From assembly GCA_044892525.1 (NCBI GenBank), contig CM097885.1:19098001-19162000 (forward strand): a DNA stretch of 64,000 nt. Reading direction: 5' to 3'. Shown here piece by piece: positions 3,457 through 60,306 of this stretch (position 1 is its first letter; every line of letters begins with the position of its first letter). The position numbers and the translations under genes were made by a program. A model generated the notes under the pieces. That model searched no databases, was not told the origin of the DNA, and saw nothing but the letters and a program-made list of their open reading frames with translations. The DNA is from Schmidtea polychroa (lineage: Eukaryota).

Positions 3457-5065
3457 GAGTGAGCTAAAAAGTATGGAAACATGAGATAGATATTTGTTTC
3501 TTTTTAACCATGTTGTGGTACAGAAATGATACTATTTGTAAAACAATATGATGTTTTTAAGATTATTTTTATTGTTATTTTGTAAATATACTAAACTTTG
3601 AATCAAAAAAGTATGGAAACATTTTACATTTCTATGATTTTGTTTAAGTGCATCATTTTAGCATGTGTTTCTGGAATTTTCTACGACAGTATAAACGAAG
3701 CATTGATCATTTCATTTCTATTCCGAATGAACTTTCTTTACAACTCAGCAGTCTCATACCTACAAAAAGGTACTTTGCAGGCAATATTCAAGAAAGAATG
3801 GTGGACCTTTATATTAATTGTTGAAGGATGAAAATTGACATTGCAAGGCTTCTGCATTTCAGCGCGGTATTGTGACTAAAGTTTTCAAAAAATATCAAAA
3901 CTGTTGAAGTGTTCAAGATGCAAAAATATGTGAGAAACCTCGCAAAACAGACAAATACATGGATCGAATTATCGTAAACGAGGTCCAAAAGACCCATTCA
4001 TAACTGCCAAAGCCATTCAAGACAACTTGAACCTCCATCACTTGAGCAAGTAAACTATTTGAAACAGACTGATTAGCGTTGGACTTCATGCACGCAATTC
4101 TGCTAAAAAGGCCTATGTTTCAGCTAAGAATTGCCGGGAAAGAATTGGTTCTGCCAAAAAGCACATAGGCTGAACTACTGTACTCTGGTCTGATGAATCA
4201 AAGTTCAACCTTTTTGGTTCCGATGGTCGATGTAAAGTTTGGCGCCAAAATCGAGAAAAATGCAATCCTCTGTACCAAAAACCAACTGTCAAGCACAGAG
4301 GTGGCAATGTTCTTGTTTGGGAAACTTTCTCGAAATATGGAACGAGTCCACTCTCACAGATCATCGGCATCATGGACAGATTTGTGTACCGTGACATCCT
4401 TGAAAAGGTAATGTTGCCATATGCCAGAGTAAGACTGCCATATAAATGGAAATTTCAGCAGGACAACGATCTAAAGCATTCCTCGAAAGTTCTACAAGAG
4501 TGGTTGGCGAAAAAAGGTCAATGTCCTTAAATGGCCATCACAATCTCCGGACCTTAGTCCAATCGAACATATTTGAGATAAGATTGGTAGACGTCTTGCA
4601 GCTCAACATTCCTCGAACGCCAATCAGCTGTATAAGAATCTTCAGGAAATTTGGTCTGAGATTCCTATTAGCATTTGTGAGTGGCTTGTGGGCTCAATGC
4701 CACGACGTTGTCAGGCAGTTTTGGATGCTGGTGGATATCCTACAAAATATTAATTATTATCTTGATGTAAACTTTTGTTGACATTGCCATTCACTCAGTA
4801 TTTATTCTGTATTTATTCAGTCAAACAGAAAATAACAAAATGTTTACATACTTATTTGTTTCAAAATTTTGCAATTTATTTTAAAACCAAATACAAAAAG
4901 GGTGTCACTTTTTTCTTACATTTTTTCACTGATTGTACCTTCAGAAAACCCACATAAAACTGTACCAAGAACCACTAACGGAAAAATTCATGGCATTCGC
5001 AGAATAAAATGATATAAGAAGAAACAAATTTCTATCTTATGTTTCCATACTTTTTTTGCTCACTG
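3457..5065 (+). mobile_element. Tc1-family transposon (1.6 kb, IR/DR-type ends), transposase disrupted
   Basis: TIRs (G/C)AGTGAGC..AAAAAGTATGGAAAC with inner repeats near 3605 and 4845; TA flanks; motifs VLWSDESKFNLFGSDG, PTVKHRGGNVLVW, FQQDNDLKH, WPSQSPDLSPIEH, MPRRCQAVLDAGGYPTKY. Confidence 0.95.
3745..4753 (+). pseudogene. Tc1 DDE transposase pseudogene
   Basis: Canonical Tc1 DDE motifs interrupted by stops and frameshifts; 5' boundary approximate. Confidence 0.9.
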
Positions 5066-10892: not shown

Positions 10893-13700
10893 CTAAAATG
10901 TTATTACCTTAATTGTGCTTTGATATTCTGATTGTGAAATTTTACTTGTAATTTTATCACAAATATCCTGAATATCTGGCGGCATCGACATGAAGCCTTT
11001 ACTGTTTTCCAGCTCTTCGTTATGATGCCCGTTTTTATATTTTGATTTAAAAGTCAAACTGTTTTTTGGAGATTTGATTTCGTTTGTGAATTCTGACCTC
11101 GTCAAATGATTGACATCCGGACAGTGATAATGTTGGGTTTCAATTGACAAAGGAATCCTATGATGTTGTCGTCGTTTCTGCCACTTGACAATAAAAACAA
11201 TGGGAATCACAGCGCATATCAAAATCACCAATGCGCAAGTTGGAATCAGTCCGAGAATGAGCAAAATGTGAGACGAGAATTTCGAATTGTCACTCATTGG
11301 CATATGAATGTTTATTGTTAAATTTGAATAATTTGTTTTACTAGGTAATCCTTGATCTTGAGCTGAAACTTGAAGAACGTAATTTCCCGGTTTTAATTGA
11401 CTTATGGAAGTTAAATCACCGGTAAATCTGTCGAGATCGAACAATCCCAGTTGGCTATGTAATTTATATGAAATATTTTCGTTGGCAGCTTTATCTAAAT
11501 CTATAGCTCTGATTCTTGTAAGCTTTGAACCCGATCCAGTCAAGGAAACACTGAGATTTAAGTAATTGTCTTTGGAACTCGGAAAGATCCATTGGGGATA
11601 ATTGTCGTTTTCGTCGAGTATTTGCAAATGTACAGTCAAAGTCGACGATAGTGATGGGATTCCTTGATCTGTTGCGATCACCGATATGACGCACTGTTGA
11701 AATCTTTCATAATCCAAAACGACTGTTGATCTAATTTCACCAATTTTATTCACTTGAAACTCAATTTCGATTTTATCATCGCTCTTATTAAAACAAAACG
11801 ATTTAACGCTTGAAATTGAAAATTGAGAATTTCTATTTTGATCAATATCACGAATTTTAATCCTCCCCAAAGAGGATTCGATTAAGGAATTTTCTACGAC
11901 TTCAAAGTTATTTCTCCCAACTAGCACTGGAGGATTATCGTTAATATCTATCACAGTTATTAATACCGAGCTGCTGCTGGTGAAATTTTTATTATCAAGT
12001 CCAATATTTATTATTATTATTAACAAATCGATCCGATCAATTTTTTCCCGATCAATCGGGTGAACCAACATCAATTTCCCGTTTTTCTTATCGATTATAT
12101 GGATTTTAAACCAACTTCCGTAAGTGCCGTTGACTTGAAATTCATTATTCGACGTTGCGTCTGCGTCAGCCAATGCAAACTTTATGATGTTTTCGGATTT
12201 CAATTCTTCCATTGTTGTCGCACTGTAGAATTGGCTATCAAAATACGGGGGGTATTCGTTGCAGTCTAATATATTGATACTAATCGACACAACTGTCGAT
12301 AAACTTGGAGACCCATTATCCGTACAATTTAAATAATAAGAAGATACGTGATTATCATTTTCCTTATCGTACGACACATTAGTAACAAGTTTGTAAAATT
12401 TATGTCTACCCTTTATAGGCTGTAAAATGATTTCTTTCGATTTCAATGACTTTGTACTGTGAAGTTGGCAAGAGACTTTCCCGTTAACTCCTCTATCTTT
12501 ATCGTCGACCCGTACAATTGCTAAAATAATTGAAGGAGGTTGATTCTCAAATATGTCAATCTGATAATAGTTATCAGAAATATATTTTGAAGTAATATTT
12601 TGAGAAGGATTCAATCTCACCTCAGGTCGGTTGTCATTGACATCTATTATATGAATTAATAATTTCGTCCAAGCAAACTTTGGAACCGAACCACAATCTT
12701 GGGCTTCAATAGTGACAAGGATCTTTTCCAATCCCAATAAAGGTTTTATTAAATAGATATCTCCAATTTTAGAATCAATTCTGATAAATTGAGACCCATA
12801 TTCATTGGCATCTCCTAGCCGATAAAGTATTTTACCAAAATCCCCCTTTTCGTTGTCGTATGCATGGACTTTAAGAATTTGGGATCCGACTTTTAAGGTT
12901 TCATTGACAACAACTGAATAGTTCTTTTGAATAAACTTTGGTGACATATCATTTATGTCTATTATTTCTATTATTAACTTTTGTTTTGAACACAATGAAC
13001 CGGTGTCACATACTTCTAGTACCAAATTATACAGTTCAACCGTTTCAAAATCCAAATCCTTTATTAATTTCAATTTCGGTTGCGTTAGAGAGGAAATTAA
13101 TATAAACGGCGAGTCTTCTGATGCCAACAGTTTATAATTATCTATACCAAATTGAAGGCTATCCAAGTCAGAAGCCTTTTCCAAATCGAAAGTATAATTT
13201 ATTTTTTCATTTTCTGGTATTTGTATAATTCGTTTGTTGTGCTGAAATTTAGGTGGATTGTCATTGACGTCGATTATATTTATTTTAATATTTATTAAAT
13301 ATTCAACAACAGAAACTACAAGAGAAATACTGCAAGGCAAGTTCGTTCCCGAAACCTTAGGACAAATAGCCTCTCTGTCGATTTCAGCCGACGTAGAAAT
13401 GACTCCTGAATACTGATCTATTACAAATAAAGGTCTGTCGGACTGATATTCAATTTGTTGCAAGTGAAAATGAACTCCGGCTTTATATCTGAATTTCTCA
13501 ATGACTTCTGTCAAAATGCCGACTCTGTTTGAGGGGGATAAATTTTCTGAAATGCTAAAAGTCACATCTAATGATTTTGTCGCACTCACAATACATCCAA
13601 AAAAGAAAATACTCTGAAACAATGAATGGAAATTCTGATGATCTATATAAAAAATCCAACTGATCACAATGAGGGATTTGTTTATTCGATATGTTGGCAT
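10893..13700 (-). CDS. Protocadherin (delta-like, 7 extracellular cadherin repeats, TM helix, cytoplasmic tail); single large exon
   Basis: 935-aa ORF; linkers DVNDNPP, DINDMSP, DVNDNRP, DCNEYPP, DINDNPP, DENDNYP plus a 7th repeat; IDRE/LDFE/LDYE motifs; IDREAIC...C in EC1; TM LLILGLIPTCALVILICAVIPIVFIV followed by KWQKRR. Confidence 0.95.
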   Translation of the reverse strand: MPTYRINKSLIVISWIFYIDHQNFHSLFQSIFFFGCIVSATKSLDVTFSISENLSPSNRVGILTEVIEKFRYKAGVHFHLQQIEYQSDRPLFVIDQYSGVISTSAEIDREAICPKVSGTNLPCSISLVVSVVEYLINIKINIIDVNDNPPKFQHNKRIIQIPENEKINYTFDLEKASDLDSLQFGIDNYKLLASEDSPFILISSLTQPKLKLIKDLDFETVELYNLVLEVCDTGSLCSKQKLIIEIIDINDMSPKFIQKNYSVVVNETLKVGSQILKVHAYDNEKGDFGKILYRLGDANEYGSQFIRIDSKIGDIYLIKPLLGLEKILVTIEAQDCGSVPKFAWTKLLIHIIDVNDNRPEVRLNPSQNITSKYISDNYYQIDIFENQPPSIILAIVRVDDKDRGVNGKVSCQLHSTKSLKSKEIILQPIKGRHKFYKLVTNVSYDKENDNHVSSYYLNCTDNGSPSLSTVVSISINILDCNEYPPYFDSQFYSATTMEELKSENIIKFALADADATSNNEFQVNGTYGSWFKIHIIDKKNGKLMLVHPIDREKIDRIDLLIIIINIGLDNKNFTSSSSVLITVIDINDNPPVLVGRNNFEVVENSLIESSLGRIKIRDIDQNRNSQFSISSVKSFCFNKSDDKIEIEFQVNKIGEIRSTVVLDYERFQQCVISVIATDQGIPSLSSTLTVHLQILDENDNYPQWIFPSSKDNYLNLSVSLTGSGSKLTRIRAIDLDKAANENISYKLHSQLGLFDLDRFTGDLTSISQLKPGNYVLQVSAQDQGLPSKTNYSNLTINIHMPMSDNSKFSSHILLILGLIPTCALVILICAVIPIVFIVKWQKRRQHHRIPLSIETQHYHCPDVNHLTRSEFTNEIKSPKNSLTFKSKYKNGHHNEELENSKGFMSMPPDIQDICDKITSKISQSEYQSTIKVITF

Positions 13701-13799
13701 GTTTGATTAAACCGTTGAAAAATATTTGTAAAAAAAATTGTTAGAAAAATTTTTACAAATTACTCTTTCTTAAAATTTTCATTTAAATTGTTTAGGAAA

Positions 13800-20099: not shown

Positions 20100-21150
20100 G
20101 GTGAACCGATAATTCGTAGATCTGATCAAATGTGAGTCAGGCCACTAGATGATGTGTCATACTCTTTGTTATTTAAACACAAGACATCAAATACAAACTC
20201 CTGGTCACTAAAGGGGAATAGAAAGATGAAAACAAAGTCAAAGACATAAATACAACACGATGAGCATATAAATAACAAAATAGAATTTATGCGAAGGAAA
20301 CAAATAAAAAAGATGATAATAACAGAAAATAATTGGAATTTTTAAAATTCAGCTATTTCTATTCAAAAGCATGCTGGAGAAGATGAGGTACATTATAAAA
20401 ATGATGTTGTTCTAGCTATCTGGAAATGTTGAGGATGAAAATAGGATAAAAACGATAAGATAAGAAAACAAGACAAGAATATCAATATGACTTAAGTATT
20501 TATGTAGCAATACAATCGTATCAAGCGGTTCTACGATGTATCGTGGTATTACTGATTGTATGCAAAAACAAATATCACCTTTGATTCCGTCAGCATCAAT
20601 GAAAATTAAACATTGTCCCTTTGCATGAGTTATAGTTCTCAATATTGACATGGATCCATTTATATAATCTTTCGATAATACCATAGAAATATATAGAAAT
20701 TTTCAGTTGAATTAATTTTGTATTTTAAACTTACACATTAGTCCGAGGAAATCTATATTCTAATTTCGAGACTTCACCATCTTTACTTTCTCTTCGGGAA
20801 ATATACATATGTATAAAAAGCAATTAATAAATGGCGAAAAAATGGGACAGGGAATACATTGATATCAACACTCTATTTAAATCTAAATTGATTAATTCCA
20901 TGTATAAAGATAACTGTAAGTTTTTAAATAAAAGTCTCTGTGGTAAAACCGTAAAGAATCTTGAAATACGTATGAATATGAGACTTTTTTAACACAACCT
21001 CGAAGTTGATAACATTTATTTCAAAACCTACGTTTAGGAAAACATTAAATCTTAGCAATGATTTGATTCTTTTCTTGCTGAATAAGGATTTGGTGTGTGT
21101 AGATAGACCTAATTACGTTGGCCAAATTGCATAGGATTGTTATTAACTGA
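20100..21150 (+). mobile_element. Decayed Penelope-like retroelement remnant
   Basis: Fragments IRKQDKN, GSTMYRG..MQKQISPLIP and GIY-YIG-like CGKTVKNLEIRM; boundaries approximate. Confidence 0.4.
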
Positions 21151-21917
21151 ATATTTGCGAGTTTTAGTATAGGGATTTACATAAATATCGTAACGAACTC
21201 AACTGCAAAATAATAATCATTGTCGGTGACACATTTTTTGTTTATTGAAATTCAAAATTGTTAGTTAGAAATTGTAAGTAAACATTAATTAAATGGAATT
21301 TGATATTGCAAATGATGACCAAAAACATAACGTGACCTGATTTTGTCATTGTGTTGGCGGGTACTACCCAGTTGACCCTTCCTGGTCTACCTTTAATCTA
21401 GGGGATGAATGTCATTTCTACCTGACCTGCCATTAACTGTGCCACCCTGGGCAGAATCCGTACATAACCCATACTCCAACATAGCACCCGTGAACCCCGG
21501 CACGTTGGAACTGTGCTATTCCGGCGAGACGCCAGTAAGCAGGTGAGCCCCTGCCTTAGGACTACTCCTTACTGAGGCCTGGACTTCCCATTCCTGACGG
21601 CCGATAGAAGGTCTTACGTCTTATCACTTCCTCTCCCTACGCAACGCCTTTCGTTTGGAACGCAAATCAACTAATGCTCTTCACATCCTTACGGCAGTCA
21701 ATACTGATTGTAATATCACACTGAACTCGTTAAAAAGAAAAGAAAATTCTAGAAAATATATTGATACAAAAAATGGGTTGTTTCCAACACTAACATACAA
21801 GGTGATCCGAGAAATTAGATTACGGAGTTATGAATCTACGAAAAACACACAAAACGGAAAACGTGAATAGTTCGCTCGTATTCCTCTAGAGGATAAGGTC
21901 ACTCCATGGAGAAGACG

Positions 21918-42916: not shown

Positions 42917-43208
42917 TGTTAGACGCAATTAAATTCAAGTCTTCTTCAAGCATTTATTTTTATAACAACTTCAAAATTGTGCCGTTTACTAGAATATTTA
43001 AACACCGAGGCGTGATAATTATTAATATTAATGTAATTACTGGTCATACATTTAATTGATTTAATTTAATATAATTTAATATAATATGATATAATTTAAT
43101 ATAGAATTTAAATATAAATATTTAACAGAAATAATTATTTCTACTAACTGATCTCACTTCTACATTTAACCATAATAATTTTATATAGAGATTTACTAAC
43201 TCCTTACA
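42917..43208 (-). repeat. 3' LTR of the Gypsy element
   Basis: Direct repeat of 47644-47935. Confidence 0.95.
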
Positions 43209-44058
43209 TCCCCCCTTCTTTAAAATGCTTTAACTTTTCTATATGCCTCGTTATTTTTCTCCCGTTTTCGTCTGTTAATAAGTAACTTCTTTCATGATTT
43301 CGTTTTATTACTGTGTATGGTCCTTCATATCTCTCGTGATCTTTGTTTCTAATTTCTTGTTTCACCAATACTTTGTCCCCAACTTCTAAGTTCCTAGTTG
43401 TGCCAATTTCTTTCGTTTGCTGTCTTTTAGCCTCTAATTTCCGCATGATTTCATTTCTATCCACTTCATTATTACTATGCCATTGCGATCTATTAATCTT
43501 TCTTCCAAATATAATTTCTGCTGGACTAACTCGAGTAGTTTTTTGAGCTGTCGCATTTAAAACGTATTCTATATCAGGTATTAATTCTGCCCAGCTTTTT
43601 TTAACTCCTTCTCTGAGTGACGCGTTAATATAGTCTCTTATAGTACGAAATTGTCTTTCAGTTACACCATTAGTATTATGATGATACGGACTCGAAAATA
43701 TCAACTCAATTACTGCTGCCTCTGCTAGTTCTTTAATACTATTTGCTTCGAAATTCTTTCCACAATCAAGATGTAGTTCCTTAGGGACTCCAAATTTAAA
43801 TATCCAATTATTTAACAAAACTGCCTTTATTGTATTTTCATCTTGCTTTCTAATAGGAGTTAGAGATATGTATTTACTGTAATGATCGATTTTTGCACAA
43901 ATATATTTTTCTACTCTGAAGGTTTCTCTTAATGGACCGCAAATATCCATGTATATTTTCTCCATAGGTTCTGAAGCTTGAATTACTTGGGTTTTTTCTT
44001 TTGACTTTGTAGTTAAAACTTTGTTTTTCTGACATGCTTCACATATTGAAATAGTCTC

Positions 44059-44129
<71 letters not shown>

Positions 44130-46273
44130 CTTCCATATCAAAATTGTTCCTAATATATTTCATAACTTTTTCTACTCCTGCGTGGCATAATAATAAATGT
44201 GTTTCCTTAATCATTTCTCGTCTTTTTGTTTCTGGTATCCATATTTTGTTTTGATTGGTATAGATAATATTTCCTTTTAATATATATTTATTATTTTTCC
44301 TTTCATTTATTTGATCTTTTATATCTTGTATTTCTGCATTATCTCTTTGCCATTCATTTCCATTATTTTCGGTCATCAATGTTAACAATCTAGTTTTTAA
44401 TCGCCCTAATTTGGGGTTATCATGGTCCATCAAACATTGTACACATTTGCCGCATGTATTTCTAGACAGCATATCTGCATTCGTATGCGCCGTACCTTTT
44501 CTGAACTCCATTTTTATGTCTAAACTGCTCAAGTAATTTATCCACGTTTGGAACTGTGCTGTTATAGGCTTCTTTGTCGTTAACATAAAAGTTATGGCTT
44601 TATGATCAGTGCGCAAAACAAACCGTTTACCGTATAAATAATGGTTGAAATTGCGACAGAAATAATATATAGCCAAAAGCTCTTTTCGTGTTATACAATA
44701 TCCTCTTTCATGGCTACTCATTGCATGGGATCTATATGCAATAACGTGTTCATGCCACATTTCATCTCTTTGTGATAATACAGCTCCAATTGTATCAAAG
44801 CTTGCGTCTGTATCTAATATGAATTCTTTCTTGAAATCTGGAAATACGAGAATTGGCGCTGTAGTCAACGCCATTTTCATTTCTTCGAAAGCTTTCTCAC
44901 ATTCCTCAGTCCAGATTATTTTTTCACTACTGCTTCCACATATGCTTTCTAGCGCTCTTGATTTTGTTGCATATTCCTTAATAAATCTCCGATCATAGTT
45001 ACATATACCTAAAAAGCTTCTCAAATTCTTTATACACTTAGGCCTTTGAAATGATTTAATAGCCTCAATTTTACTTTGATCTGTCCGAATCCCTGACTGT
45101 TAATAATGTGCCCTAAAAACTTTACTTCGCTCTTTAATAACTGACACTTTTCTGGGTTGATTCTCAATTTAGCTTCTCGTATTTTCTCTAGAACTTTTCC
45201 AAACACATTGTAATGTTCTTCAATTGTTCTTGTAAAAATTAAAATATCGTCTAAATACACCATAACTCCTTCTTTCCATAGATCTTTCAATATTTTTGTC
45301 ATTAATTCTTGGAATGTACCCGGTGCCGCCGCAATTCCAAAAGACATTCTATTAAAACAAAATTGCCCTTCTTTAGTAGAAAATGCTGTCTTTTCTTGCG
45401 ATTCTATGTCCAATTTCACTTGATAATAAGCGTTCCCAAGGTCTATAGAACTAAAGTACTTAGATCCATGTAATGTATCTAGAATTTCTTCTACATTCGG
45501 CATAGGAAAAGCTTGTCTTTCAGTAATCTTATTAAGCTGTCTAAAATCTAAACAAAGTCTGATATCTTTTTTGTCTTTTTTCCACACGCATACTAACGGC
45601 GTATTCCAAAGTGAATTACATCTTCTTATGATATCATTATTTTCTAAATTTTTTATAGCAGCATTTATTTTCTCCTCTAAATTGATGGGTTGTCTTCTGG
45701 GTTTTATCATAATTGGCCCTTCTTTTGTGATGATTTTATGTGCAATTAAATCAGTACATCCGATATCCCAGTTGTTAGCCATAAAACACTTTTGTTGTTT
45801 TTAACAATCTCTAACAGTCTTTTATTTTCGTTTAATCTTAGAATTTCTATTGCTTTTTGACATCTCTCGTTATCTGTAATCTTTTCCCCAAATCTAGCTT
45901 CTTTTTCACACACAAATTCATTATATCCTTCTTCATTTTGCTTGATGTAGTTTAATTCAATTCCAAACTCTTTCTGCAATTCCACTCCGCCTATTATATC
46001 TGGAACAATATTTTTAACTATTATAAATGTTATTTTTCTTTCCATATTACCAATTCTAACATCAATATTTATTTTTCCGATTGTCTCTAATTTACTATCA
46101 TTTGCACATCTTAACATCTCATCTGTTTTTATGATTTTCACATTCACTAATTTGTCCACAACTGCTTCTGTCATTACATTTACTCTTGCTCCTGTATCTA
46201 GTAAGCATTCCATTCTATAGCCCTGAATTTCAAGAGTTGTACTCGGTCTACCTTGCATTTTGTCATAACTCAA
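43204..46273 (-). pseudogene. Gypsy pol (protease, RT, RNase H, integrase), frameshifted
   Basis: LLDTGA, LCLDFRQLN, YLDDILIF, ILDTDAS, RTDHKA, H-x4-H..CxxC, HLDCGKNF, NGVTER, YEGPY. Confidence 0.95.
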
Positions 46274-46602
46274 TTTCGGTCGTTTCCATTCATCTTTAGT
46301 GAAAATATTTTGCTCCTCTGATATTTCATTAATCCACCCAATTTCATTTTTCTCTAATTTATCTTCTGCCTTTTTAATAAATTTATAAACTTTTTCATTT
46401 ACTATTTTATTATTATATTCTGCTTCTTTAATTTCATTATACTCTTCTTGATTCTTAGGATTATTATTATTATTTATTAAAGATCGATCAGCATTAAAAT
46501 AACTATAACATTTAAAATTACTTAAAGGAAACTTTTTAAAATATTAATTTAAAATATTATTAAAATTATTATGACCAATATTTACATCAATATCAAAATT
46601 AC

Positions 46603-47680
46603 CTAGTATATTGCTCCGATCATTGCCTCCCGTGTCGAAGCATGTACTTTTGGGTGCTGAATATCCTCATATTTGTCCTCTGCATCATCTGAATACTCAA
46701 GTGACATCGTCTCATCATTAGCTTCAATTGCTGCAATTGTTCTTCCTGGATTGTTGATCTTTTGTTGATAGCTTGTGGTTCGATGGGCATAATAATTATT
46801 GTTTCTCATGTTTGAATTAGTTTGAAACTTCCTTCTTTCCAAATTTGTATAGCAGTCAATCTCATTTGTGTCCACGTAAGTGACATCTGTGGCATTGAAT
46901 CGTTGAACATTCTCGCCGTACGTGGCCTTCAACTCCGCATGCAAAACACGTCATTTTCTTTTTCATTTGGCATTCTCGACTAACATGACCAGTTTTCTTG
47001 CATGTCCAGCATTCCAATTGTCGGTTACTGACGTTTCGCTGCTTGAAATTATTATTTCCGTTTACCATTCCTCTTTGAGCAACATCTTTGTAGCTTCTGT
47101 AGTTTTGAACAACCGGTGAAGTCTTCACAACATTAATATGGCCCATAATTTTGTTTACCTTTTCTAATTTCTTTGCTGTCGTTTTTATTTCTTCTGATGT
47201 TTTCAAATCTTTCATCTCGATCTCTTTTTTAACTTCTCGATCTCTTACACAGTTTGTAAGCAGGCATTTTTATATTTCTTCTTCATCCCATTTGTGCGCT
47301 ATTAATTTCTTTGTCATCTTTTTAATTTTCTCTATAAAAGTTTCGGCTGAATCTGATCCTTGTTCATAACTCAAAGCTTCTTTTAGATCATCCATTAATG
47401 ATGTCGGTTTCGAAAATGCACATCGAAGTTTCTCTTCCATAGTTTTTCCTTCGGCTGCTTCATAATCTTCCATTAGCGATCTGTCAAGTAATGTTGTAGT
47501 TAATATTACTTGCATCCTAATTGTTGTTTTTGTCGCGCCAAAAAAACCTTTGACAATCCTTGATAAATTTTCTAAATCATCGCCTTTGTGAAATTTCTCA
47601 GGTAGTAATCTGCTTATCAATAAATCCGTGGTTGTGGTCGCCATGTTAGACGCAATTAAATTCAAGTCTTCTTCAAGCAT
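46603..47680 (-). pseudogene. Gypsy gag, frameshifted
   Basis: Zinc knuckles CWTCKKTGHVSREC, CFACGVEGHVRREC, CHRCHLRGH across three ORF pieces. Confidence 0.9.
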
Positions 47681-54494: not shown

Positions 54495-54838
54495 TATTCA
54501 TTATTATAAAATAATAAATAAAAATTTATATATATAGTCTGTAAAAACTATTTTAAATAGTGTATTTATATATTTTCATTTTAATATTGAAAAATTAAAT
54601 AAATCAAGAGCAGGAAAAAAGATATAATATATAGATATATTTGTTGAATTTCGCATTGAAGTGTATAGGACCTATTTTAGGTTGATAATTTTCATTTAAT
54701 AAACACTATTGAAGTATTATTTATAAGTGGAATATAACTGAATTTGAATAAATGCTCAAATTTACTAACTTGTTACAGCATTTTAAAAAAAATGTGGTAT
54801 TTGATGCAACTTTTTATTACAACAAGAATATATATATA

Positions 54839-55758
54839 CAGTAAACCCTCCAACTGCGCGGTGGATACGTTCCACAAAAACAACGCGCAAACCGAAACCG
54901 CGCACTGTGAACCCGATTTTATATGTAATTATGGGGTTAGGTTCCATATATTACAAAAATATTAAAAAATATAATAAAAAGTCTTTATTCAACGACTAAT
55001 ATACATATTTACATTTATATAAACATAAAAACTAATAAAAACAGTCTCAATTCATTGCTTTTACATAATTAATATTACTATTATAGCATTATAGCTATTA
55101 TAGCATTCAATTTAATCCTCCTTATGCTGGATTCGTTCATATTGTGTCTCTTAGCTAAAACAGACATTTTTTCGCCATTTTCTAATTGCTTCACAATTTC
55201 AAGTTTTGCCTCTAACGTCAATATTTTTCTTTTGCCAGCTTTTTCCATTATTATATATAAGGTGTAGAAATTATTAAAAACCTATTAAATCAAAATGAGT
55301 ATTAAATCAAAAATCAAAAATTTTATTTATACTTACTTTATAACACTCTTTAATTGATGTAATAATTTTTTATTACGGTTATATCTAATGCACACGAATA
55401 AGATCTTTTTGAATTTAATACTAATATATTTTTAATTAAATAAACACTTGTATAAATATCTATTAATTAAATGAAATTATTAAATAAATGAAACTGCCTT
55501 TATTATTTTTATATAAAAAATACAGTGCATCGAAATACGATGAATCACTATTTTCACTACCATATGTATTCGTAGTTTTACGGGATTCACCATAAAAAAT
55601 TAAATTGACATGATTTTTCTTGTTAAAATAGACAAAAACAAAAAAAACCGCGCAGCTACGAAATTTTTAGCGCGCAGATCGAAATTTTGGTATTAAAGGT
55701 TTGACCGCGCAATTGCGAAACCGCGCAATGAAAAACCGCGCAGTTGGAGGGTTTACTG
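54839..55758 (-). mobile_element. Internally deleted Tigger/pogo element, copy 2 (inverted)
   Basis: Near-identical reverse complement of 51201-52109, inserted in a TA run. Confidence 0.92.
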
Positions 55759-56460
55759 TATATATATATATTTTTAAAATTTACGCCATAATTTAACAAC
55801 TTATATATATTATGATAAACACACCAGTCTTATATTACAGAATTAAAATCATATACTTCAACACACGGCGAGACAGTGAATAACATCAGCATCAAATGCC
55901 ATAATATGATATCATTCATATATTATCAAACATATTTCTGTTATTTTATAGAAATATATTATAGAAATAAAATCATATTCTTCAACATCCTGTGGGACAA
56001 TGAACAAAAGCTTTAATAAAATACTTAGAAATTTTTTTTAATTGAAAGTACTTTAAAGTGAAGGTCACACTACTTGACTTAGAAAAGATTTTGAAAAATA
56101 AAAATGCCTGGATAAATTTTGGAAAGTTTAGACTTAGAAATTTGTATATAAAAATACTTGAAAAAATTCAACAAATTATTAGATAAAATCACATAAGGAT
56201 ATGAAAAAATATTTCCAACTCAAATTTCCCAAAATTTAAAAAGTTCCAAAATTATTTTTCCAACTCAAAAATTTCCGAAAATTAATTTTCCAAAATTTTC
56301 CCAAATTTATTCTTTCCAAATTTTTAAAAGTTCAAAAAAACTAAAGTCTAATTTTCTAAATCAAATACACACACATGTCTAAGTTATTCAAATATAAAGA
56401 TTAAAATCATCACCTACACGCCCGCCCGCCGCCCGAATGGGCAGGCGCGGTAGTTTGTAA

Positions 56461-56847
56461 ATTTTGATACTCATCAATTTGGAAACAGTCCAACAAAAGA
56501 AAAAATTATTCGAGGAAATATTTTTTGATGATGAAATTACATAGTCTCGAATTATTATAGGTTTCATGTGTATTAAAAATATTTTAGAGAAATCGGACTC
56601 AGACTTTGAAAATTATTTTCAATGGTCTGTAGATGTTTTATTTTGATTGATCAAATTGACATCAACATTATTTAGATTACTTAATCAAAAATTATGCCAT
56701 GGGTCGATGCTCATGGTGGATGGATTATCATGATTAGACTAGCTAAAAAAGCAAAAAAAGAATAATGCCAGATGTGAAAAATTATTGAAACTACTGATTG
56801 AATTAGGAGTTGTATATACATGTATAGAAATTTTTCAAAAACTATAA
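56461..56847 (+). pseudogene. Bcl-2-family protein pseudogene
   Basis: BH1-like LFEEIFFDDEIT*SRIIIGF (TAG at the conserved Trp); BH2-like YL..KIMPWVDAHGGW (56700-56723); hydrophobic tail LLKLLIELGVVYTCIEIF; probable short intron near 56635-56675. Confidence 0.7.
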
Positions 56848-56921
56848 TTCTTGGTAACTGTAGTTGATGTTTAAATAAAAGTATAAACAAAATTATCTTT
56901 AATTTTAAAATTTTTTCAAAC

Positions 56922-57266
56922 ATGTCGGAAAAAGCTAAAATATTATGTTTTAAATGATTATTAATTTTTTATTTAGAATATATAATCAACTTTTTGATTG
57001 AAAAATTAGAGTAGACATCTAATGTAAAAATTAGAGAATTTATGAATGTTCCAGAGAAATTAAAATGGCTATATTCAGACGATGAAATTAACGTAGAAAA
57101 AAATTTACCTAGTGAAGAAATTAAGTCATGTATAGATAATTCTACAACTGATAAATCACCAAAGGAACCTAAACAAAAAGATAAATCTAATGATTTTCCT
57201 AATTGTGTTGATCATATTGTTCAAAATATAATGAAAAGAGATTGTAAAGATCAATGTGATGATTAA
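56922..57266 (+). pseudogene. Small unknown Polinton-associated gene
   Basis: 74-aa ORF 57042-57266 preceded by an in-frame segment and acceptor TTTTTATTTAG; upstream ATG at 56922. Confidence 0.35.
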
Positions 57267-57304
57267 TAAATTTTAAAACTTTAGTTATTTTATATTACTA
57301 TTAT

Positions 57305-57867
57305 TTAAAAGACACCAAACGCTAATAAATATGTATTTAGAAATATACAATGTTCATCATCAAACATTTCTTCGTCTTTTAAAGCTTTCCAAATTGGCTT
57401 GGTTTGGTCTCAACTTACATTATATCCTTGAATTAATACGGTGACCATGCCAGTTATTTTACTCATCTTATCACCATTGGAAATCATTTGATAAACATAT
57501 CTTCTTCGATGAATTAAATATTTTCGTTCATTCTCTGAAATAATTGTCACAATACCATCGTATCATTGAACTTGATTTTGGAAAATAGAAGATTGTAGAA
57601 ACATTGGTTCCTAACAATAAATAATAAAATCCAAAATAATTTATACAAACTTACCTCAAATATATAAGAAATTGGACAATACAAATAATTTAGTTTGTAT
57701 TGCAAGAATTCTACTGGCATTTTCCAGAGATAATGTCGTTTCTTTAAATTTCAATTTTCCGAATTTCTGAGCGGCATCTGTATTGTTTCTCTCCAATACT
57801 CCTATATTAAAAAGCTATTAAATGAAATATTTGCAAAGGACAACAAACCTGTAATTTGATGATCCAT
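57305..57867 (-). pseudogene. Three-exon unknown Polinton-associated gene
   Basis: ATG at 57867; introns 57848-57802 (GTTTGT..ATAG) and 57654-57611 (GTAAGT..TTAG); exon frames mostly open with a few lesions. Confidence 0.55.
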
Positions 57868-58063
57868 TTGTAGTTATAATGTTTAATGAATTGAAACAGA
57901 TATTTATACTAATTCCATTGTAAATAAGGTTTCAACTGACAGACATGATCAAAACGTGAACAACTAGTCCATTTAATGTTAATTAACAAAGTCTGAAATG
58001 ATTTTTGTATACAAAGAAATGTTATAGGTTAGTTAAGGTAATAATATCACATAACAAATATAA

Positions 58064-58451
58064 TTACAGGGATATTTTATATTTTATTAAAACAATACAT
58101 TTTTGCAATTCCACAAGTAATGCATGAATTATTTCTCTTTTCGGTAGATTCACAAAACATGTACAACTATCATCCCCAAAAATATTTCGTATATTATTTT
58201 TACAAAAATCACAATTTTCAACATCATCAGTATAGCACGTAATCATAGAATGATCCATATGAATTAATTTCATGACATTTATTCCAGTTATTTCATAGAC
58301 ACAACTTCTTAAGCATAATACATTATGGAATTGTTCAAATTCGGATAAAAATCTTCAATTTTATTAATCAAATTTTATAGTATAGTTTCTAAACAAAAAT
58401 CAATAAATTTAAAATTAAAAAAATTAAACATTTACCAGCATTTTCAGTCAT
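58064..58451 (-). pseudogene. Two-exon Cys-rich unknown Polinton-associated gene
   Basis: ATG at 58451; intron 58435-58389 (GTAAAT..TTTAG); exon 2 contains H..C..CDFC..CTC. Confidence 0.5.
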
Positions 58452-58492
58452 TGTTGAATAAATATAAATCCTTCAACAATAGTATGAAAATC

Positions 58493-58912
58493 TCAATTTT
58501 TATTACCTAATACAACTATTTTACCACCCGAAAAAATTTTTATACACAGTAGGTTATATTTTGTATAACGCAGAGTGGGGAATAATTCAGGCTCATATAT
58601 ACAATCTCCATCTAATAACTTTCCTAAATTATTCAGATTAATAGATTGTCCAACCTTGGTAGCTATAGTAAGACTTTGAACTTGAATATCTTTGATATTA
58701 TATTGTAAATTCTCAAATTCGATAGGTTTCTTACAACCCATTATACGACATTTACCATTTTTGAAAAATATAATGGTATATTTTCCAATTTTGTCAATAT
58801 ATTGTTGTGGTTTACACTTGGGGAGATTCATCATACCGGCAGTTTCCAAAGATACACGACCCCTATAATTAATATTTTTCAACATATCTAATGAATATTT
58901 AAAAAATATCAA
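58493..58912 (-). CDS. TATA-binding-protein (TBP)-like protein, divergent core only; C-terminus possibly frameshifted
   Basis: Two TBP half-repeats: TIIFFKNGKCRIMGCK and IQVQSL..INLNNL..IYEPELFPTLRY..CIKIFSGGKIVVLG, matching TBP YEPELFPGL / IF.SGKIV.TG. Confidence 0.85.
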   Translation of the reverse strand: MIFFKYSLDMLKNINYRGRVSLETAGMMNLPKCKPQQYIDKIGKYTIIFFKNGKCRIMGCKKPIEFENLQYNIKDIQVQSLTIATKVGQSINLNNLGKLLDGDCIYEPELFPTLRYTKYNLLCIKIFSGGKIVVLGNKN

Positions 58913-59021
58913 GTATATATATTATAATAGCATAATTAAAACATCTTATCCTTTACGATATAAACAATATCAATTTTTAAATATACATATTAAAATAGAA
59001 CTAATAAATGATGATAAATAA

Positions 59022-59506
59022 ATAGTCGGGCCAAGTGGTAGTGGAAAAACTTTGTTTGTTTGCAAATTACTAAAATCACATTTATTCAAATCAAAATTCA
59101 CGTATTGACTCACGATAATTTCTGTAAATTGAAAAATATGAAAATAGTAAAGGGATTTGGTAAAATGTGGTACAGTAGACTAAAGACAGGAGTTGTCATA
59201 ATGATTGATGATTTGTATCAAGAAGCTAATAAAGAAAAGAATTTCAATAATTTATTTACCAAAATAAGCAGACACTTTGGTGTAACGGTTATTTTTATAA
59301 CTCAAAATTTATTTCATCAAGGCGGTGCACATAGAACTCGTAATTTAAAGGTTCATTATTTGGTCGTTTGTAAAAACCCTAGAAATGCAACAATTATTGA
59401 TTTTCTTGCAAGACAGGCATATCCAAATAATCATAATTTTCTGATAATTGCATTTCAAGATGCTACAAAATAACCTTATGGATATATATTTCTTAATTTC
59501 AAACAA
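59022..59506 (+). pseudogene. Polinton A32/FtsK-like packaging ATPase
   Basis: Walker A IVGPSGSGKT; Walker B VIMIDDL; LFTKISRH..VIFITQNLF, KNPR..LARQAYP, DATK*PYGY. Confidence 0.9.
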
Positions 59507-60200
59507 GGCTAATTCTGCCGAGGAAATATCCAAAGCAATTAAACTTATGTTTAGAGATGGATATCCAGAAAACATACAAACAGATTTGGGTGAAATTTCT
59601 GTACTATCAAATTCATTTTTTTTCTTTAGGAAAGAAATTTTACAACAGTAAAGTGAAACAAATCCTGAATAAACTCAAAATCAATCATTACTCTGTACAT
59701 TCTCAATTCAAAGCCGTTCATGCTGAAAGATTTAATCAAACATTGAGGGATAAGCTTAAAAAGGGTTTGTGCATCAAGGTAATAAGACGCCAATAAATGT
59801 TTTGCCTAAAATTTTATTGGGTTATAATAATTCGTCCCATCAAGGTTTGAGACCTGTAAATATTTCATCAAACACTCTATTGATTTACAGTTTTCGATAA
59901 AGGCTGAAATAATTCAAAAACCAAAATATAAAATCGGTGATCATGTTAGAATTAGAAGAATAAGTGCATCTTCATTCATAAAAAGTTTTGATACAAATTG
60001 GAACGATGAAGTCTTTGTATTTTTCAAAAGAAATATGATCAAGACTATGATCAAAATATTGTACAAGGGAAATTTTATGAACAAGAATTACATGTCTTTC
60101 CTTCACCAAAAGTATTTTGAATTCAAAAAATATTTTAAACTATGAAGAATCGCGAGGATAAACAATACTATGTCAAATGACATGGATATCAAGACCCGAC
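59507..60200 (+). pseudogene. Polinton retroviral-like integrase with an intron and chromodomain-like end
   Basis: PENIQTDLG|KKFYN after removing 59590-59629; KAVHAERFNQTL; YNNSSH; KYKIGDHVRI; QYYVK*HGY. Confidence 0.88.
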
Positions 60201-60229
60201 ATATATATCAGCAAAAGATTTAGTAAAGT

Positions 60230-60306
60230 AAATTTCTATATTATTTTATCGAGCAAAAGTTGTCCATTAATTCATCCAAACAATGAAGCAAGCAAATTCA
60301 TAATTC
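60230..60306 (+). pseudogene. N-terminus of the Polinton minor capsid (penton) protein, truncated
   Basis: FYIILSSKSCPLIHPNNEASKFII resembles the FYxxLPSxS..P.N..S.F start motif; cut off by the Penelope pseudo-LTR. Confidence 0.6.

What the first reader, a model, noticed from the sequence alone, without database searches (positions are those of the whole stretch)
55840..60306. Polinton-like element carrying TBP-like, Bcl-2-like and spliced orphan genes
Seen: within about 4 kb, tightly packed, are a Bcl-2-like gene, three small unknown genes, a TBP-like gene, then an A32-type ATPase, an integrase and a minor-capsid start. Established: ATPase + rve integrase + capsid define Polintons/Mavericks, and large DNA viruses use Bcl-2 homologs and basal transcription factors to control host cells. 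Inference: this is a decayed copy of a virus-like lineage with its own TATA-recognition factor and apoptosis regulator, expressed with host-type short introns. I do not know of this combination being described, but cannot check the literature.
Basis: partly seen in the sequence, partly recalled or inferred. Interest (0 to 1): 0.88.

Follow-up and report, generated by a model that had tools for sequence, protein, structure and literature searches.

The report
Dead Maverick copy with TBP-like gene
This stretch is a broken copy of a virus-like Maverick/Polinton element, one of thousands in this animal genome, whose lineage carries its own small TATA-binding-protein-like gene and a Bcl-2-like gene; the element type is known, but its TBP-like gene has hardly been described.

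Summary
Window 55777-60302 is a decayed fragment (about 4.5 kb) of a 14.7-16.8 kb Maverick/Polinton. Every gene in it carries stops, frameshifts or deletions.

In order it holds:
- a left-TIR remnant
- a Bcl-2-like gene (+ strand, one 41-nt intron)
- three small orphan genes
- a TBP-like gene (Pfam TBP E 3e-14)
- an A32-type ATPase
- an rve integrase lacking its N-terminus
- the start of the putative minor capsid gene

Fuller copies elsewhere in the genome add the putative major capsid, adenain protease, protein-primed PolB, long TIRs, 5'-AG termini and 6-bp TSDs. The TBP-like, Bcl-2-like and capsid genes each give thousands of candidate loci, and they co-occur in at least two Maverick families.

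The 150-170 aa TBP-like protein folds as a TBP saddle with a reduced first lobe. It has relatives on 80 metagenome contigs. All 13 contigs of 5.5 kb or more also carry Maverick core genes, so it is a conserved lineage gene and not a recent capture.

Bcl-2 likeness rests on several weak, concordant signals. Adintovirus Bcl2 and IAP homologs, and a "TBP" label on related viruses, are already in print (PMC8502044). I call this a new member of a known kind. Transcription and function are untested.

The parts
55777..56464 (.). Left terminal-inverted-repeat remnant. It is rich in short tandem repeats. The outermost ~150 bp, including the 5'-AG terminus, are missing, and 55785-55883 duplicates the next ~100 bp.
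   Evidence: blastn to TIRs of other copies at 67-81%; termini defined in L009
56476..56844 (+). Bcl-2-like pseudogene. It comprises the rest of exon 1 with the BH1-like motif, a 41-nt GT..AG intron (56635-56675), and exon 2 with a BH2-like W..GGW motif. The first ~49 codons are lost, and the reading frame carries in-frame stops and a frameshift.
   Evidence: tblastn, 85% and 83% identity to the L009 exons; sequence read; intact relatives; Pfam Bcl-2 E 0.0023-0.0008, below the cut-off
56961..57266 (+). Small acidic protein gene with a Cys-rich C-terminus and no known family. It carries one in-frame stop.
   Evidence: tblastn 63% to the L015 ORF; homolog in family 2 at 32-33% identity, E 5e-9; no Pfam hit
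57347..57811 (-). Orphan gene with a putative 44-nt GT..AG intron (57611-57654). It is frameshifted and carries stops in the window.
   Evidence: tblastn; gene model read; family-2 homolog at 34% over 68 aa, E 3e-7; only 1 database hit, a 77-aa fragment at 95% identity
58100..58395 (-). Cys-rich small protein gene with no known family. It is frameshifted and carries two stops.
   Evidence: tblastn 77-84%; weak family-2 homolog, E 9e-4; no credible Pfam hit
58463..58885 (-). TBP-like gene (ORF 58493-58921). The last ~29 codons are lost at the site of a ~69-bp deletion.
   Evidence: Pfam TBP E 3.1e-14; 89% identity to the L015 protein; deletion seen; fold
58989..59506 (+). A32/FtsK-type packaging ATPase (Walker A near 59025). 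It is frameshifted, with stops, and its C-terminal ~24 codons are lost.
   Evidence: tblastn 79-81%; Pfam Pox_A32 E 7.9e-8 on the L015 copy
59496..60233 (+). rve integrase remnant (from codon ~108 on) with a chromo-like C-terminal tail. About 960 bp upstream of it (orf172 plus the integrase N-terminus) are deleted at ~59501. It has several frameshifts and a stop in the chromo-like motif.
   Evidence: blastn colinearity with L012, L014 and L015; tblastn; Pfam rve E 1.1e-8; Tudor-knot E 2.7e-4 and Chromo E 1.1e-3 on L015
60230..60302 (+). First ~24 codons of the putative minor capsid (penton) gene. The copy is truncated here.
   Evidence: blastn match to L015 ends at 60300-60302; the gene lies between integrase and the putative major capsid in fuller copies. 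The capsid role is assigned by position only.

Best explanation
**What it is (about 0.95).** Window 55777-60302 is a dead fragment of an integrated Maverick/Polinton, an adintovirus-like element of the Preplasmiviricota. The fragment is end-damaged, internally deleted and 3'-truncated. The element has multiplied to thousands of copies in this AT-rich animal genome. The genes at this locus do nothing now. What follows concerns the living lineage.

**Shown.**
- The lineage carries the Maverick core: protein-primed PolB, rve integrase with a chromo-like tail, A32-type ATPase, adenain protease and putative capsid genes, bounded by TIRs with 6-bp TSDs.
- It also carries a left-end accessory block: TBP-like, Cys-rich, orphan, acidic, and either a Bcl-2-like or a RING-finger gene.
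- The TBP-like protein is a conserved gene of a wide Maverick clade and usually sits just upstream of the ATPase.
- It folds as a TBP saddle whose first lobe is reduced.
- The motif YEPE(L/I)FPA and the paired Phe positions of its second lobe are invariant.

**Inferred for the TBP-like protein (about 0.5).** It binds AT-rich, TATA-like viral promoters and recruits host TFIIB and RNA polymerase II through its conserved C-terminal stirrup. This would make viral transcription independent of host TBP/TFIID.

**Inferred for the other accessory genes (about 0.6).** The tail-anchored Bcl-2-like protein, or the RING protein in the alternative subfamily, delays host-cell death during replication.
For: **Element type.**
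- Pfam hits on one fuller copy: DNA_pol_B_2 4.1e-8, Peptidase_C5 4e-6, Pox_A32 7.9e-8, rve 1.1e-8.
- TIRs: 577 bp at 99.1%; 1396 bp at 97.4% and 1480 bp at 95.9%.
- 5'-AG termini and perfect 6-bp TSDs in 2 of 2 family-2 copies. The L009 TSD matches at 5 of 6 bases.
- The nearest ESM Atlas clusters to the putative capsid protein are a Preplasmiviricota cluster and a 'double jelly roll-like' cluster, both scoring 0.96.

**Copy number (first-look candidates).**
- TBP-like: 3845, with 150 of 150 scored at 86-100% identity.
- Capsid: 4609, with 118 of 121 scored showing no stop inside the match.
- Bcl-2-like exon 1: 2360.

**TBP-like protein.**
- Pfam TBP E 3e-14, 4.8e-17 and 2.6e-13 on three copies.
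- AlphaFold2 model at pLDDT 95.4.
- The 44 Foldseek matches with E <= 0.001 are all TBP entries and align over ~170 columns.
- 107 database relatives.
- 21 invariant columns among 34 aligned sequences, including E98, P99, E100, F102, P103 and F118.
- Of 80 metagenome loci holding a relative, 38 also hold at least one Maverick core gene. That includes 13 of 13 loci of 5.5 kb or more. In 25 of the 27 loci with an ATPase, the TBP-like gene is on the same strand.
- TATA-like blocks are conserved in the TBP-ATPase spacer of three copies.

**Bcl-2-like protein.**
- Pfam Bcl-2 is the top hit for 4 of 7 exon-1 sequences, best E 0.0008.
- In a profile search of PDB sequences, the top hit is Bcl-2-related A1 (E 0.021), and 55 of the 60 rows shown are Bcl-2-family entries.
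- 38 of the 44 Foldseek rows listed are Bcl-2-family entries.
- BH1-like and W..GGW motifs occur in the right order, followed by a hydrophobic tail.
Against: **No expression evidence.**
- No listed sequencing run is on record as RNA.
- One 1717-nt contig of a run only guessed to be RNA crosses both putative introns of the orphan gene unspliced.

**Every Bcl-2 signal is below significance.**
- Pfam scores 18.9 bits against a cut-off of 31.4.
- The best Foldseek E-value is 0.54, on a model of exon 1 only at pLDDT 68.5.
- phmmer over 1.84 billion representatives found a single hit, at 46% identity, the same figure as the genome's own family-2 copies.

**Capsid genes are not confirmed by profile.**
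- A profile of the capsid C-terminal part found nothing among PDB sequences.
- Pfam found nothing for it either.

**TBP-like caveats.**
- Its first lobe lacks the second helix.
- Only 3 of the 4 positions that hold the DNA-kinking Phe in cellular TBP are conserved. That mapping is from recalled knowledge, read on the alignment.
- DNA and TFIIB binding are untested.
Confidence: 0.8

Rival explanations
1. The TBP-like protein is not a transcription activator of the element. It is a decoy or repressor that keeps the TFIIB-binding stirrup but lacks the TFIIA/TAF/NC2-binding surface. It would soak up host TFIIB or occupy host TATA boxes to shut down or re-programme host transcription.
For: The first lobe is reduced: no second helix in the model, and the lobe spans only residues 1-64. 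The stirrup motif of the second lobe is invariant. Both facts fit a partial-function protein.
Against: The position directly upstream of the ATPase is conserved across a wide clade. TATA-like blocks are conserved in the element's own spacer. Both fit self-promoter recognition at least as well. There is no direct data either way.
Confidence: 0.2
2. The TBP-like protein is an architectural DNA-bending protein used in genome replication, integration or packaging, for example by binding the AT-rich tandem repeats of the TIRs, and not in transcription.
For: The gene sits beside the packaging ATPase in 26 of the 27 loci that hold both, with a gap of 1.7 kb or less. The TIRs are built of short AT-rich tandem repeats.
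Against: The residues that are invariant are those of the stirrup that contacts TFIIB in cellular TBP (the mapping is recalled). A mere DNA bender would not need them.
Confidence: 0.12
3. The TBP-like and Bcl-2-like genes are recent passenger captures from this host, with no role for the element.
For: Mavericks are known to pick up cellular genes (recalled). The host has several TBP-family genes.
Against: The TBP-like gene has the same short architecture, and 33-52% identity, on the 80 metagenome loci kept. Their core genes are 25-75% identical to this element's. It is only ~21-26% identical to cellular and archaeal TBPs. Both genes persist in two families here at 57% and 44-46% identity.
Confidence: 0.03
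4. The window segment is a chance mosaic of unrelated transposon fragments, not one element.
For: A MITE abuts the left end. The similarity first seemed to stop at 59506.
Against: The same order, including the integrase part, is colinear in L012, L014 and L015 once a ~960-bp deletion is allowed for. The order also holds over 7 kb between independent copies at 95% identity.
Confidence: 0.02

Closest known systems
Mavericks/Polintons of animals = adintoviruses (Starrett et al. 2021, PMC8502044; passages and section 3.4 read)
   Same: It shares the protein-primed PolB, rve integrase, adenain, A32/IVa2-type ATPase, capsid genes and TIRs. That paper's text reports adintovirus homologs of Bcl2 and IAP. 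Its Figure 5 legend lists a 'TBP' label for related midsize linear dsDNA viruses.
   Different: Here the TBP-like gene sits in an animal-genome Maverick with thousands of copies, and it is conserved across a wide clade next to the ATPase. The paper gives TBP only as a map label and does not discuss it. I could not see its figures or supplementary figures, so overlap with its Bcl2/IAP-bearing genomes is unknown.
Cellular TATA-binding protein (Pfam PF00352; solved structures such as 1ytb, 1cdw, 2z8u)
   Same: It has the saddle fold over the whole length (Foldseek E 5.6e-10 to 3.1e-6 over the 44 TBP entries, TM 0.59-0.67). The second repeat is complete, with an invariant YEPE(L/I)FPA stirrup and both Phe positions.
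   Different: It is 150-170 aa and has no N-terminal tail. The first repeat is shortened, with a very short first helix and no second helix. Identity to TBPs is 21-26%. It starts with a conserved M-x-x-N-I-N-Y.
TBP-like genes of giant viruses (recalled; not examined here)
   Same: A DNA virus of eukaryotes carrying its own TBP-family factor.
   Different: Giant viruses bring their own RNA polymerase. A 15-kb Maverick has none, so its factor would have to work with the host polymerase.
Viral Bcl-2 homologs (for example canarypox CNPV058, 5wos; fowlpox FPV039, 5tzq)
   Same: It is a small, very divergent protein with BH1- and BH2-like motifs and a hydrophobic tail. CNPV058 is the best single-sequence PDB hit (E 0.068).
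   Different: All scores are below significance. The gene has an intron. No BH3 or BH4 was recognised.
BCL-2 motif in the giant Burro Gypsy retrotransposons of planarians (PMC6431247; passages read)
   Same: A mobile element of an invertebrate that carries a Bcl-2-like module.
   Different: That is a retrotransposon ORF1 domain, not a separate gene of a DNA element. Relatedness was not tested, and the host group of this window was not established.

Membership tests
Maverick/Polinton (Polintoviricetes/adintovirus-like) | [quoted passage not shown] | tested here: met
   DNA_pol_B_2 E 4.1e-8 on L017 5145-5783; present in family 2. It is absent from the window copy, which is truncated.
Maverick/Polinton (Polintoviricetes/adintovirus-like) | Retrovirus-like rve integrase | tested here: met
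   rve E 1.1e-8; remnant in the window at 59496-60133
Maverick/Polinton (Polintoviricetes/adintovirus-like) | Long TIRs, 5'-AG..CT-3' termini and 6-bp target-site duplication | tested here: met
   TIRs of 577-1480 bp. AG termini and perfect 6-bp TSDs in 2 of 2 family-2 copies. L009 TSD matches at 5 of 6 bases. The ends of the L015 copy were not found.
Maverick/Polinton (Polintoviricetes/adintovirus-like) | A32/FtsK-type packaging ATPase and adenain-type protease | tested here: met
   Pox_A32 E 7.9e-8; Peptidase_C5 E 4e-6
Maverick/Polinton (Polintoviricetes/adintovirus-like) | Double-jelly-roll major and single-jelly-roll minor capsid proteins | tested here: inconclusive
   No Pfam hit. No PDB sequence hit with a profile. 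Language-model look-alikes include a Preplasmiviricota cluster and a 'DJR-like' cluster at 0.96. No fold was made. The minor capsid is assigned by position only.
TATA-binding protein family (PF00352) | Sequence match above the curated cut-off | tested here: met
   50-62 bits against a cut-off of 22.9
TATA-binding protein family (PF00352) | Two-lobed saddle fold | tested here: met
   Model at pLDDT 95.4. The 44 Foldseek matches with E <= 0.001 are all TBP entries, aligned over ~170 columns.
TATA-binding protein family (PF00352) | Two complete repeats (S1-H1-S2-S3-S4-S5-H2 each) | tested here: not met
   The first lobe has a 5-residue first helix and no second helix. HMMER matches only the second repeat strongly.
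TATA-binding protein family (PF00352) | DNA binding at TATA elements and TFIIB recruitment | not testable with these tools
   Only the conservation of stirrup and Phe positions was seen. The mapping to cellular TBP residues is recalled.
Bcl-2 family (PF00452) | Sequence match above the curated cut-off | tested here: not met
   18.9 bits against a cut-off of 31.4 on exon 1. 4 of 7 exon-1 sequences hit at E <= 0.1.
Bcl-2 family (PF00452) | BH1 and BH2 motifs in order, with a C-terminal membrane anchor | tested here: met
   Read in intact copies: a W-(S/T)-R-I-I motif, then W-x3-G-G-W, then a hydrophobic tail. Motif definitions are recalled.
Bcl-2 family (PF00452) | Helical-bundle fold with a BH3-binding groove | tested here: inconclusive
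   Only exon 1 was folded (pLDDT 68.5, five helices). Best Foldseek E 0.54, yet 38 of the 44 rows listed are Bcl-2-family entries. The spliced protein was not folded.

The most novel reading that the evidence does not exclude
A whole clade of Maverick/adintovirus-like viruses carries a minimal TBP of about 150 aa, with a reduced first lobe and an intact TFIIB-binding stirrup. It replaces host TBP/TFIID at viral TATA-like promoters, giving a small nuclear DNA virus without its own polymerase a private route to host RNA polymerase II. In this animal the gene has been copied thousands of times, so expressed copies could also interfere with host promoter choice.
Probability: 0.35. Interest if true: 0.7.

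Novelty: new member of a known kind. Interest (0 to 1): 0.45.

Why it matters
Mavericks/Polintons are thought to be integrated viruses that depend on the host for transcription.

A TBP-family gene that is conserved across a wide Maverick clade and sits next to the packaging ATPase suggests these elements control their own promoter recognition. That idea is testable with simple binding assays.

The gene is mentioned in print only as a map label (searches; PMC8502044 and its preprint).

The locus also documents three further points:
- A very large and apparently recent Maverick expansion in an animal genome.
- Swapping of cell-death-related accessory genes (Bcl-2-like versus RING) at one position.
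- Spliceosomal-type short introns inside viral accessory genes.

The window copy itself is dead and has no likely function.

Tried and rejected
- **Wrong Bcl-2 candidate.** I first took the orphan gene at 57347-57811 (-) for the Bcl-2-like gene. It has no Pfam, PDB-sequence or Atlas support, so I rejected it. The real candidate lies on the + strand at 56476-56844.
- **Apparent end at 59506.** The first DNA search suggested the repeat ends at 59506 and that the integrase belongs to another element. Colinear copies with a ~960-bp extra stretch rejected this.
- **RNA evidence.**
  - No RNA holder is listed.
  - Contigs laid from four runs show cover, but no joint at the putative introns in the runs guessed to be RNA. 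A- and T-runs at two loose ends are explained by genomic runs or divergent copies.
  - This says nothing for or against expression.
- **Relatives of the Bcl-2-like exon 1.** The word-based search found none. The exhaustive phmmer search found one hit, at 46% identity.
- **Relatives of the orphan gene.** One 77-aa fragment.
- **IMG/VR scan for TBP-like relatives.** One locus (33% identity) with no Maverick core genes.
- **Capsid.** The profile against PDB sequences gave nothing.
- **Orphan exon A against the family-2 ORF.** Not significant (E 0.44), so the intron of the orphan gene rests on GT..AG ends and frame logic only.
- **Earlier findings of this scan.** Three look-ups returned nothing.
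- **Host group.** I did not establish it. A guess from genome size and chromosome number (planarian flatworm) was used only to choose literature search words and remains untested.
- **Steps not taken.** I did not fold the spliced Bcl-2-like protein or any joined exons. I did not run a binding prediction with host TFIIB, because no contiguous host TFIIB sequence was in hand.

Full report
**The sequence and its setting**

The window is AT-rich, at 18-40% GC per 2 kb. It lies on the largest of four chromosome-sized contigs of a 781-Mb assembly. It holds transposon remnants and a long cadherin-repeat ORF, read by eye, so the host is an animal. I did not establish which animal.

**The window fragment**

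Six-frame reading of 55.5-60.9 kb and tblastn with proteins of better copies give this order:
- a tandem-repeat-rich TIR remnant, 55777-56464
- a Bcl-2-like remnant, 56476-56844 (+)
- an acidic small ORF, 56961-57266 (+)
- an orphan gene, 57347-57811 (-)
- a Cys-rich ORF, 58100-58395 (-)
- a TBP-like ORF, 58463-58885 (-)
- an A32-type ATPase, 58989-59506 (+)
- an integrase remnant with a chromo-like tail, 59496-60233 (+)
- the first codons of the next gene, to about 60302

All of these carry stops, frameshifts or deletions. About 960 bp, covering orf172 and the first ~107 integrase codons, are missing at ~59501. The copy ends at ~60302. A young MITE abuts the left end.

**What the element is**

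A DNA search of the genome at first suggested a 3.7-kb repeat ending at the ATPase. Pairwise comparison of fetched loci then showed that the integrase part is colinear in other copies. It also showed that independent copies share more than 7 kb at 95% identity.

One fuller copy runs from L015:2579 to L017:7293 and is 14.7 kb, with 577-bp inverted ends at 99.1% identity. Its genes, in order:
- a RING-finger gene
- the acidic, orphan and Cys-rich genes
- TBP-like (Pfam TBP E 4.8e-17)
- ATPase (Pox_A32 E 7.9e-8)
- a 172-aa ORF
- integrase (rve E 1.1e-8)
- a 312-aa ORF and a 122-aa ORF
- a 427-aa ORF
- a protease (Peptidase_C5 E 4e-6)
- a polymerase in three frames (DNA_pol_B_2 E 4.1e-8)

A second family of 16.0-16.8 kb has TIRs of 1396 bp (97.4%) and 1480 bp (95.9%). 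It has 5'-AG termini and perfect 6-bp target duplications in 2 of 2 copies. A 5.5-kb deletion derivative has the same terminal motif and a TSD matching at 5 of 6 bases.

These are the defining features of Mavericks/Polintons.

The capsid assignment is weaker. Pfam and a profile search of PDB sequences found nothing. The nearest language-model clusters are a Preplasmiviricota cluster and a 'double jelly roll-like' cluster, both at 0.96.

**Copy number and age**

| Query | First-look candidates | Scored matches |
|---|---|---|
| TBP-like ORF | 3845 | 150 of 150 at 86-100% identity |
| Pfam TBP model | 2998 | the ~10 top matches lie at five loci (the canonical TBP gene and other TBP-family genes); the remaining matches score 50-56 bits |
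| Bcl-2-like exon 1 | 2360 | - |
| Putative capsid | 4609 | 118 of 121 without a stop inside the match |

These are lower-bound candidates and not curated copy numbers.

The window copy is 79-89% identical to the other copies, so it is old relative to copies whose TIRs are 96-99% identical.

**The TBP-like gene**

The protein is 150-170 aa and starts with a conserved M-x-x-N-I-N-Y, so no upstream exon is needed. HMMER matches one full TBP repeat.

An AlphaFold2 model built on 34 sequences has pLDDT 95.4. It shows a second, shortened lobe in front, with a 5-residue first helix and no second helix. The 44 Foldseek matches with E <= 0.001 are all TBP entries, aligned over about 170 columns with TM 0.59-0.67 and 21-26% identity.

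The invariant columns include E98, P99, E100, F102, P103 and F118. By recalled knowledge of yeast and human TBP, these correspond to the C-terminal stirrup that contacts TFIIB and to the two DNA-kinking Phe of the second repeat. In the first lobe one such Phe is invariant and the other position varies.

The protein has 107 relatives in the large protein collection. A metagenome scan kept 80 loci. Of these, 38 also encode at least one of this element's core proteins, at 25-75% identity. That includes 13 of the 13 loci of 5.5 kb or more. The 42 loci without a core gene have a median length of 1.9 kb. In 25 of the 27 loci with an ATPase, the TBP-like gene is on the same strand, mostly directly upstream.

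The gene is therefore a conserved component of a broad Maverick clade and not a recent capture from this host.

In three copies from two families, the spacer between the TBP-like and ATPase genes keeps TATA-like blocks.

**The Bcl-2-like gene**

My first candidate, the orphan gene, was wrong. The real one is on the + strand.

In intact copies, exon 1 ends shortly after a W-(S/T)-R-I-I-(I/V)-G-F motif. A 41-47-nt GT..AG intron follows. Exon 2 then holds W-x3-G-G-W and a hydrophobic tail. The intron position is the same in the two families, whose exon 1 is 44-46% identical.

The scores are all sub-threshold but point one way:
- Pfam Bcl-2 E 0.0023 (18.9 bits against a cut-off of 31.4). 4 of 7 exon-1 sequences hit at E <= 0.1.
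- The best single-sequence PDB hit is a canarypox Bcl-2-like protein, E 0.068.
- With a profile, the top hit is Bcl-2-related A1 at E 0.021, and 55 of the 60 rows shown are Bcl-2-family entries.
- A model of exon 1 alone (pLDDT 68.5) gives no significant fold match, with best E 0.54. Even so, 38 of the 44 rows listed are Bcl-2-family entries.
- An exhaustive phmmer search found only one hit, at 46% identity.

I put a Bcl-2 fold at about 0.8. I did not fold a spliced protein.

**The small genes and introns**

The acidic, orphan and Cys-rich genes have homologs in the same order in family 2:

| Gene | Identity to family-2 homolog | E-value |
|---|---|---|
| Acidic | 32-33% | 5e-9 |
| Orphan | 34% over 68 aa | 3e-7 |
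| Cys-rich | 28% over 43 aa | 9e-4 |

None has a credible family match.

The orphan gene's intron is 44 nt in the window and 51 nt in L015. It rests on GT..AG ends and frame logic. The match of its upstream exon to the uninterrupted family-2 ORF is not significant.

The host's canonical TBP gene has a 45-nt GT..AG intron, so the size class fits the host.

No listed run is on record as RNA. In a run only guessed to be RNA, one 1717-nt contig crosses both putative introns of the orphan gene unspliced.

**How it most likely works**

Shown: the element type, the conservation and fold of the TBP-like protein, and the multi-copy co-occurrence.

Inferred: in the living lineage, the TBP-like protein recognises the element's AT-rich promoters and brings in host TFIIB and polymerase II through its conserved stirrup, bypassing TFIID (about 0.5). 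The rivals are a decoy or repressor of host transcription (0.2) and an architectural DNA bender for replication or packaging (0.12). The Bcl-2-like gene, or the RING gene in the sister subfamily, would delay host-cell death (about 0.6).

At this locus nothing is functional.

**Comparison with what is known**

Four literature searches bear on the TBP question:
- 'Polinton' with 'TATA-binding protein'
- 'Maverick' with TATA, integrase, capsid and polB
- 'polinton' with 'TBP'
- 'polinton' with 'Bcl-2'

The only relevant source they found is Starrett et al. 2021 (PMC8502044) and its preprint. I read passages and section 3.4 of the paper, and passages of the preprint. The text reports adintovirus homologs of Bcl2 and IAP, shown in supplementary figures that I could not see. 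'TBP' appears only in the legends of maps of related viruses from non-animal datasets.

A review notes a BCL-2 motif in giant Gypsy elements of planarians (PMC6431247, passages). A 2026 preprint reports Maverick expansions in Dugesia flatworms (passages). Both bear on this locus only if the host is a flatworm, which I did not test.

**Verdict**

This is a new member of a known kind. The little-described part is the conserved, shortened TBP-like gene.

Noticed in passing
window 54824-55769: A ~940-bp MITE-like element with ~35-bp inverted ends abuts the left end of the Maverick fragment. Other copies in the genome are 96-99% identical, so it is much younger than the fragment.
   Followed up: partly
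window 20849-21242 (+): A short PolB remnant, 43-62% identical to this Maverick's PolB, lies inside a GC-richer block (35-40% GC at 20-24 kb). It probably comes from another Maverick lineage.
   Followed up: no
L104:2327 to L105:8280 and L106:1924 to L107:8706 (own genome, C3 and C4): This is a second Maverick family of 16.0-16.8 kb. Its 1.4-kb TIRs each contain a whole Bcl-2-like gene, so each element carries two inverted copies. One element has the same in-frame stop in both copies.
   Followed up: partly
L015:3088-3596 (-) versus L009:6441-6978 (-): The accessory gene next to the left TIR differs between subfamilies. One subfamily has a RING-finger gene there (zf-C3HC4_3, E 4.7e-11; no BIR found). 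The window's subfamily has the Bcl-2-like gene.
   Followed up: partly
L009:2471-7988 (own genome, C4): This is a 5.5-kb deletion derivative with 787-bp TIRs (87% identical). It keeps only the ATPase, the TBP-like gene, the three small genes and the Bcl-2-like gene. It has no integrase, capsid or PolB.
   Followed up: partly
family 1 (L015/L017) versus family 2 (L104-L107): Conservation is mosaic. The capsid is 94-95% identical, the ATPase 90% and the protease 84-85%. PolB is only 50-68%, TBP-like 57%, Bcl-2-like exon 1 44-46% and the acidic gene 32-33%. This suggests module exchange between lineages.
   Followed up: no
L015:6026-6140, L104:5864-5940, L009:4085-4156: The short divergent spacer between the TBP-like and ATPase genes keeps TATA-like blocks in three copies of two families. 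One block is ~35-40 nt upstream of the ATPase start and one is close to the TBP-like start. The rest of the spacer differs.
   Followed up: no
own genome C2:182637078-182637596, C2:132285308-132285757, C1:195751380-195751880: Beside the canonical intron-bearing TBP gene (C1:244962231-244962740), there are three intron-less ORFs of 166-215 aa with two TBP repeats. These may be host paralogues or genes of other elements.
   Followed up: no
window 43204-47680 (-), 10893-13706 (-), 4113-4781: By eye only: an LTR-retrotransposon pol/gag block, a 937-aa cadherin-repeat ORF, and a Tc1/mariner-type transposase remnant. None was tested against a family library.
   Followed up: no
L023 (IMG/VR contig, 44.7 kb): This viral contig has a TBP-like match (33% identity) but none of this Maverick's core genes. 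It is presumably a different virus group with its own TBP-family gene.
   Followed up: no
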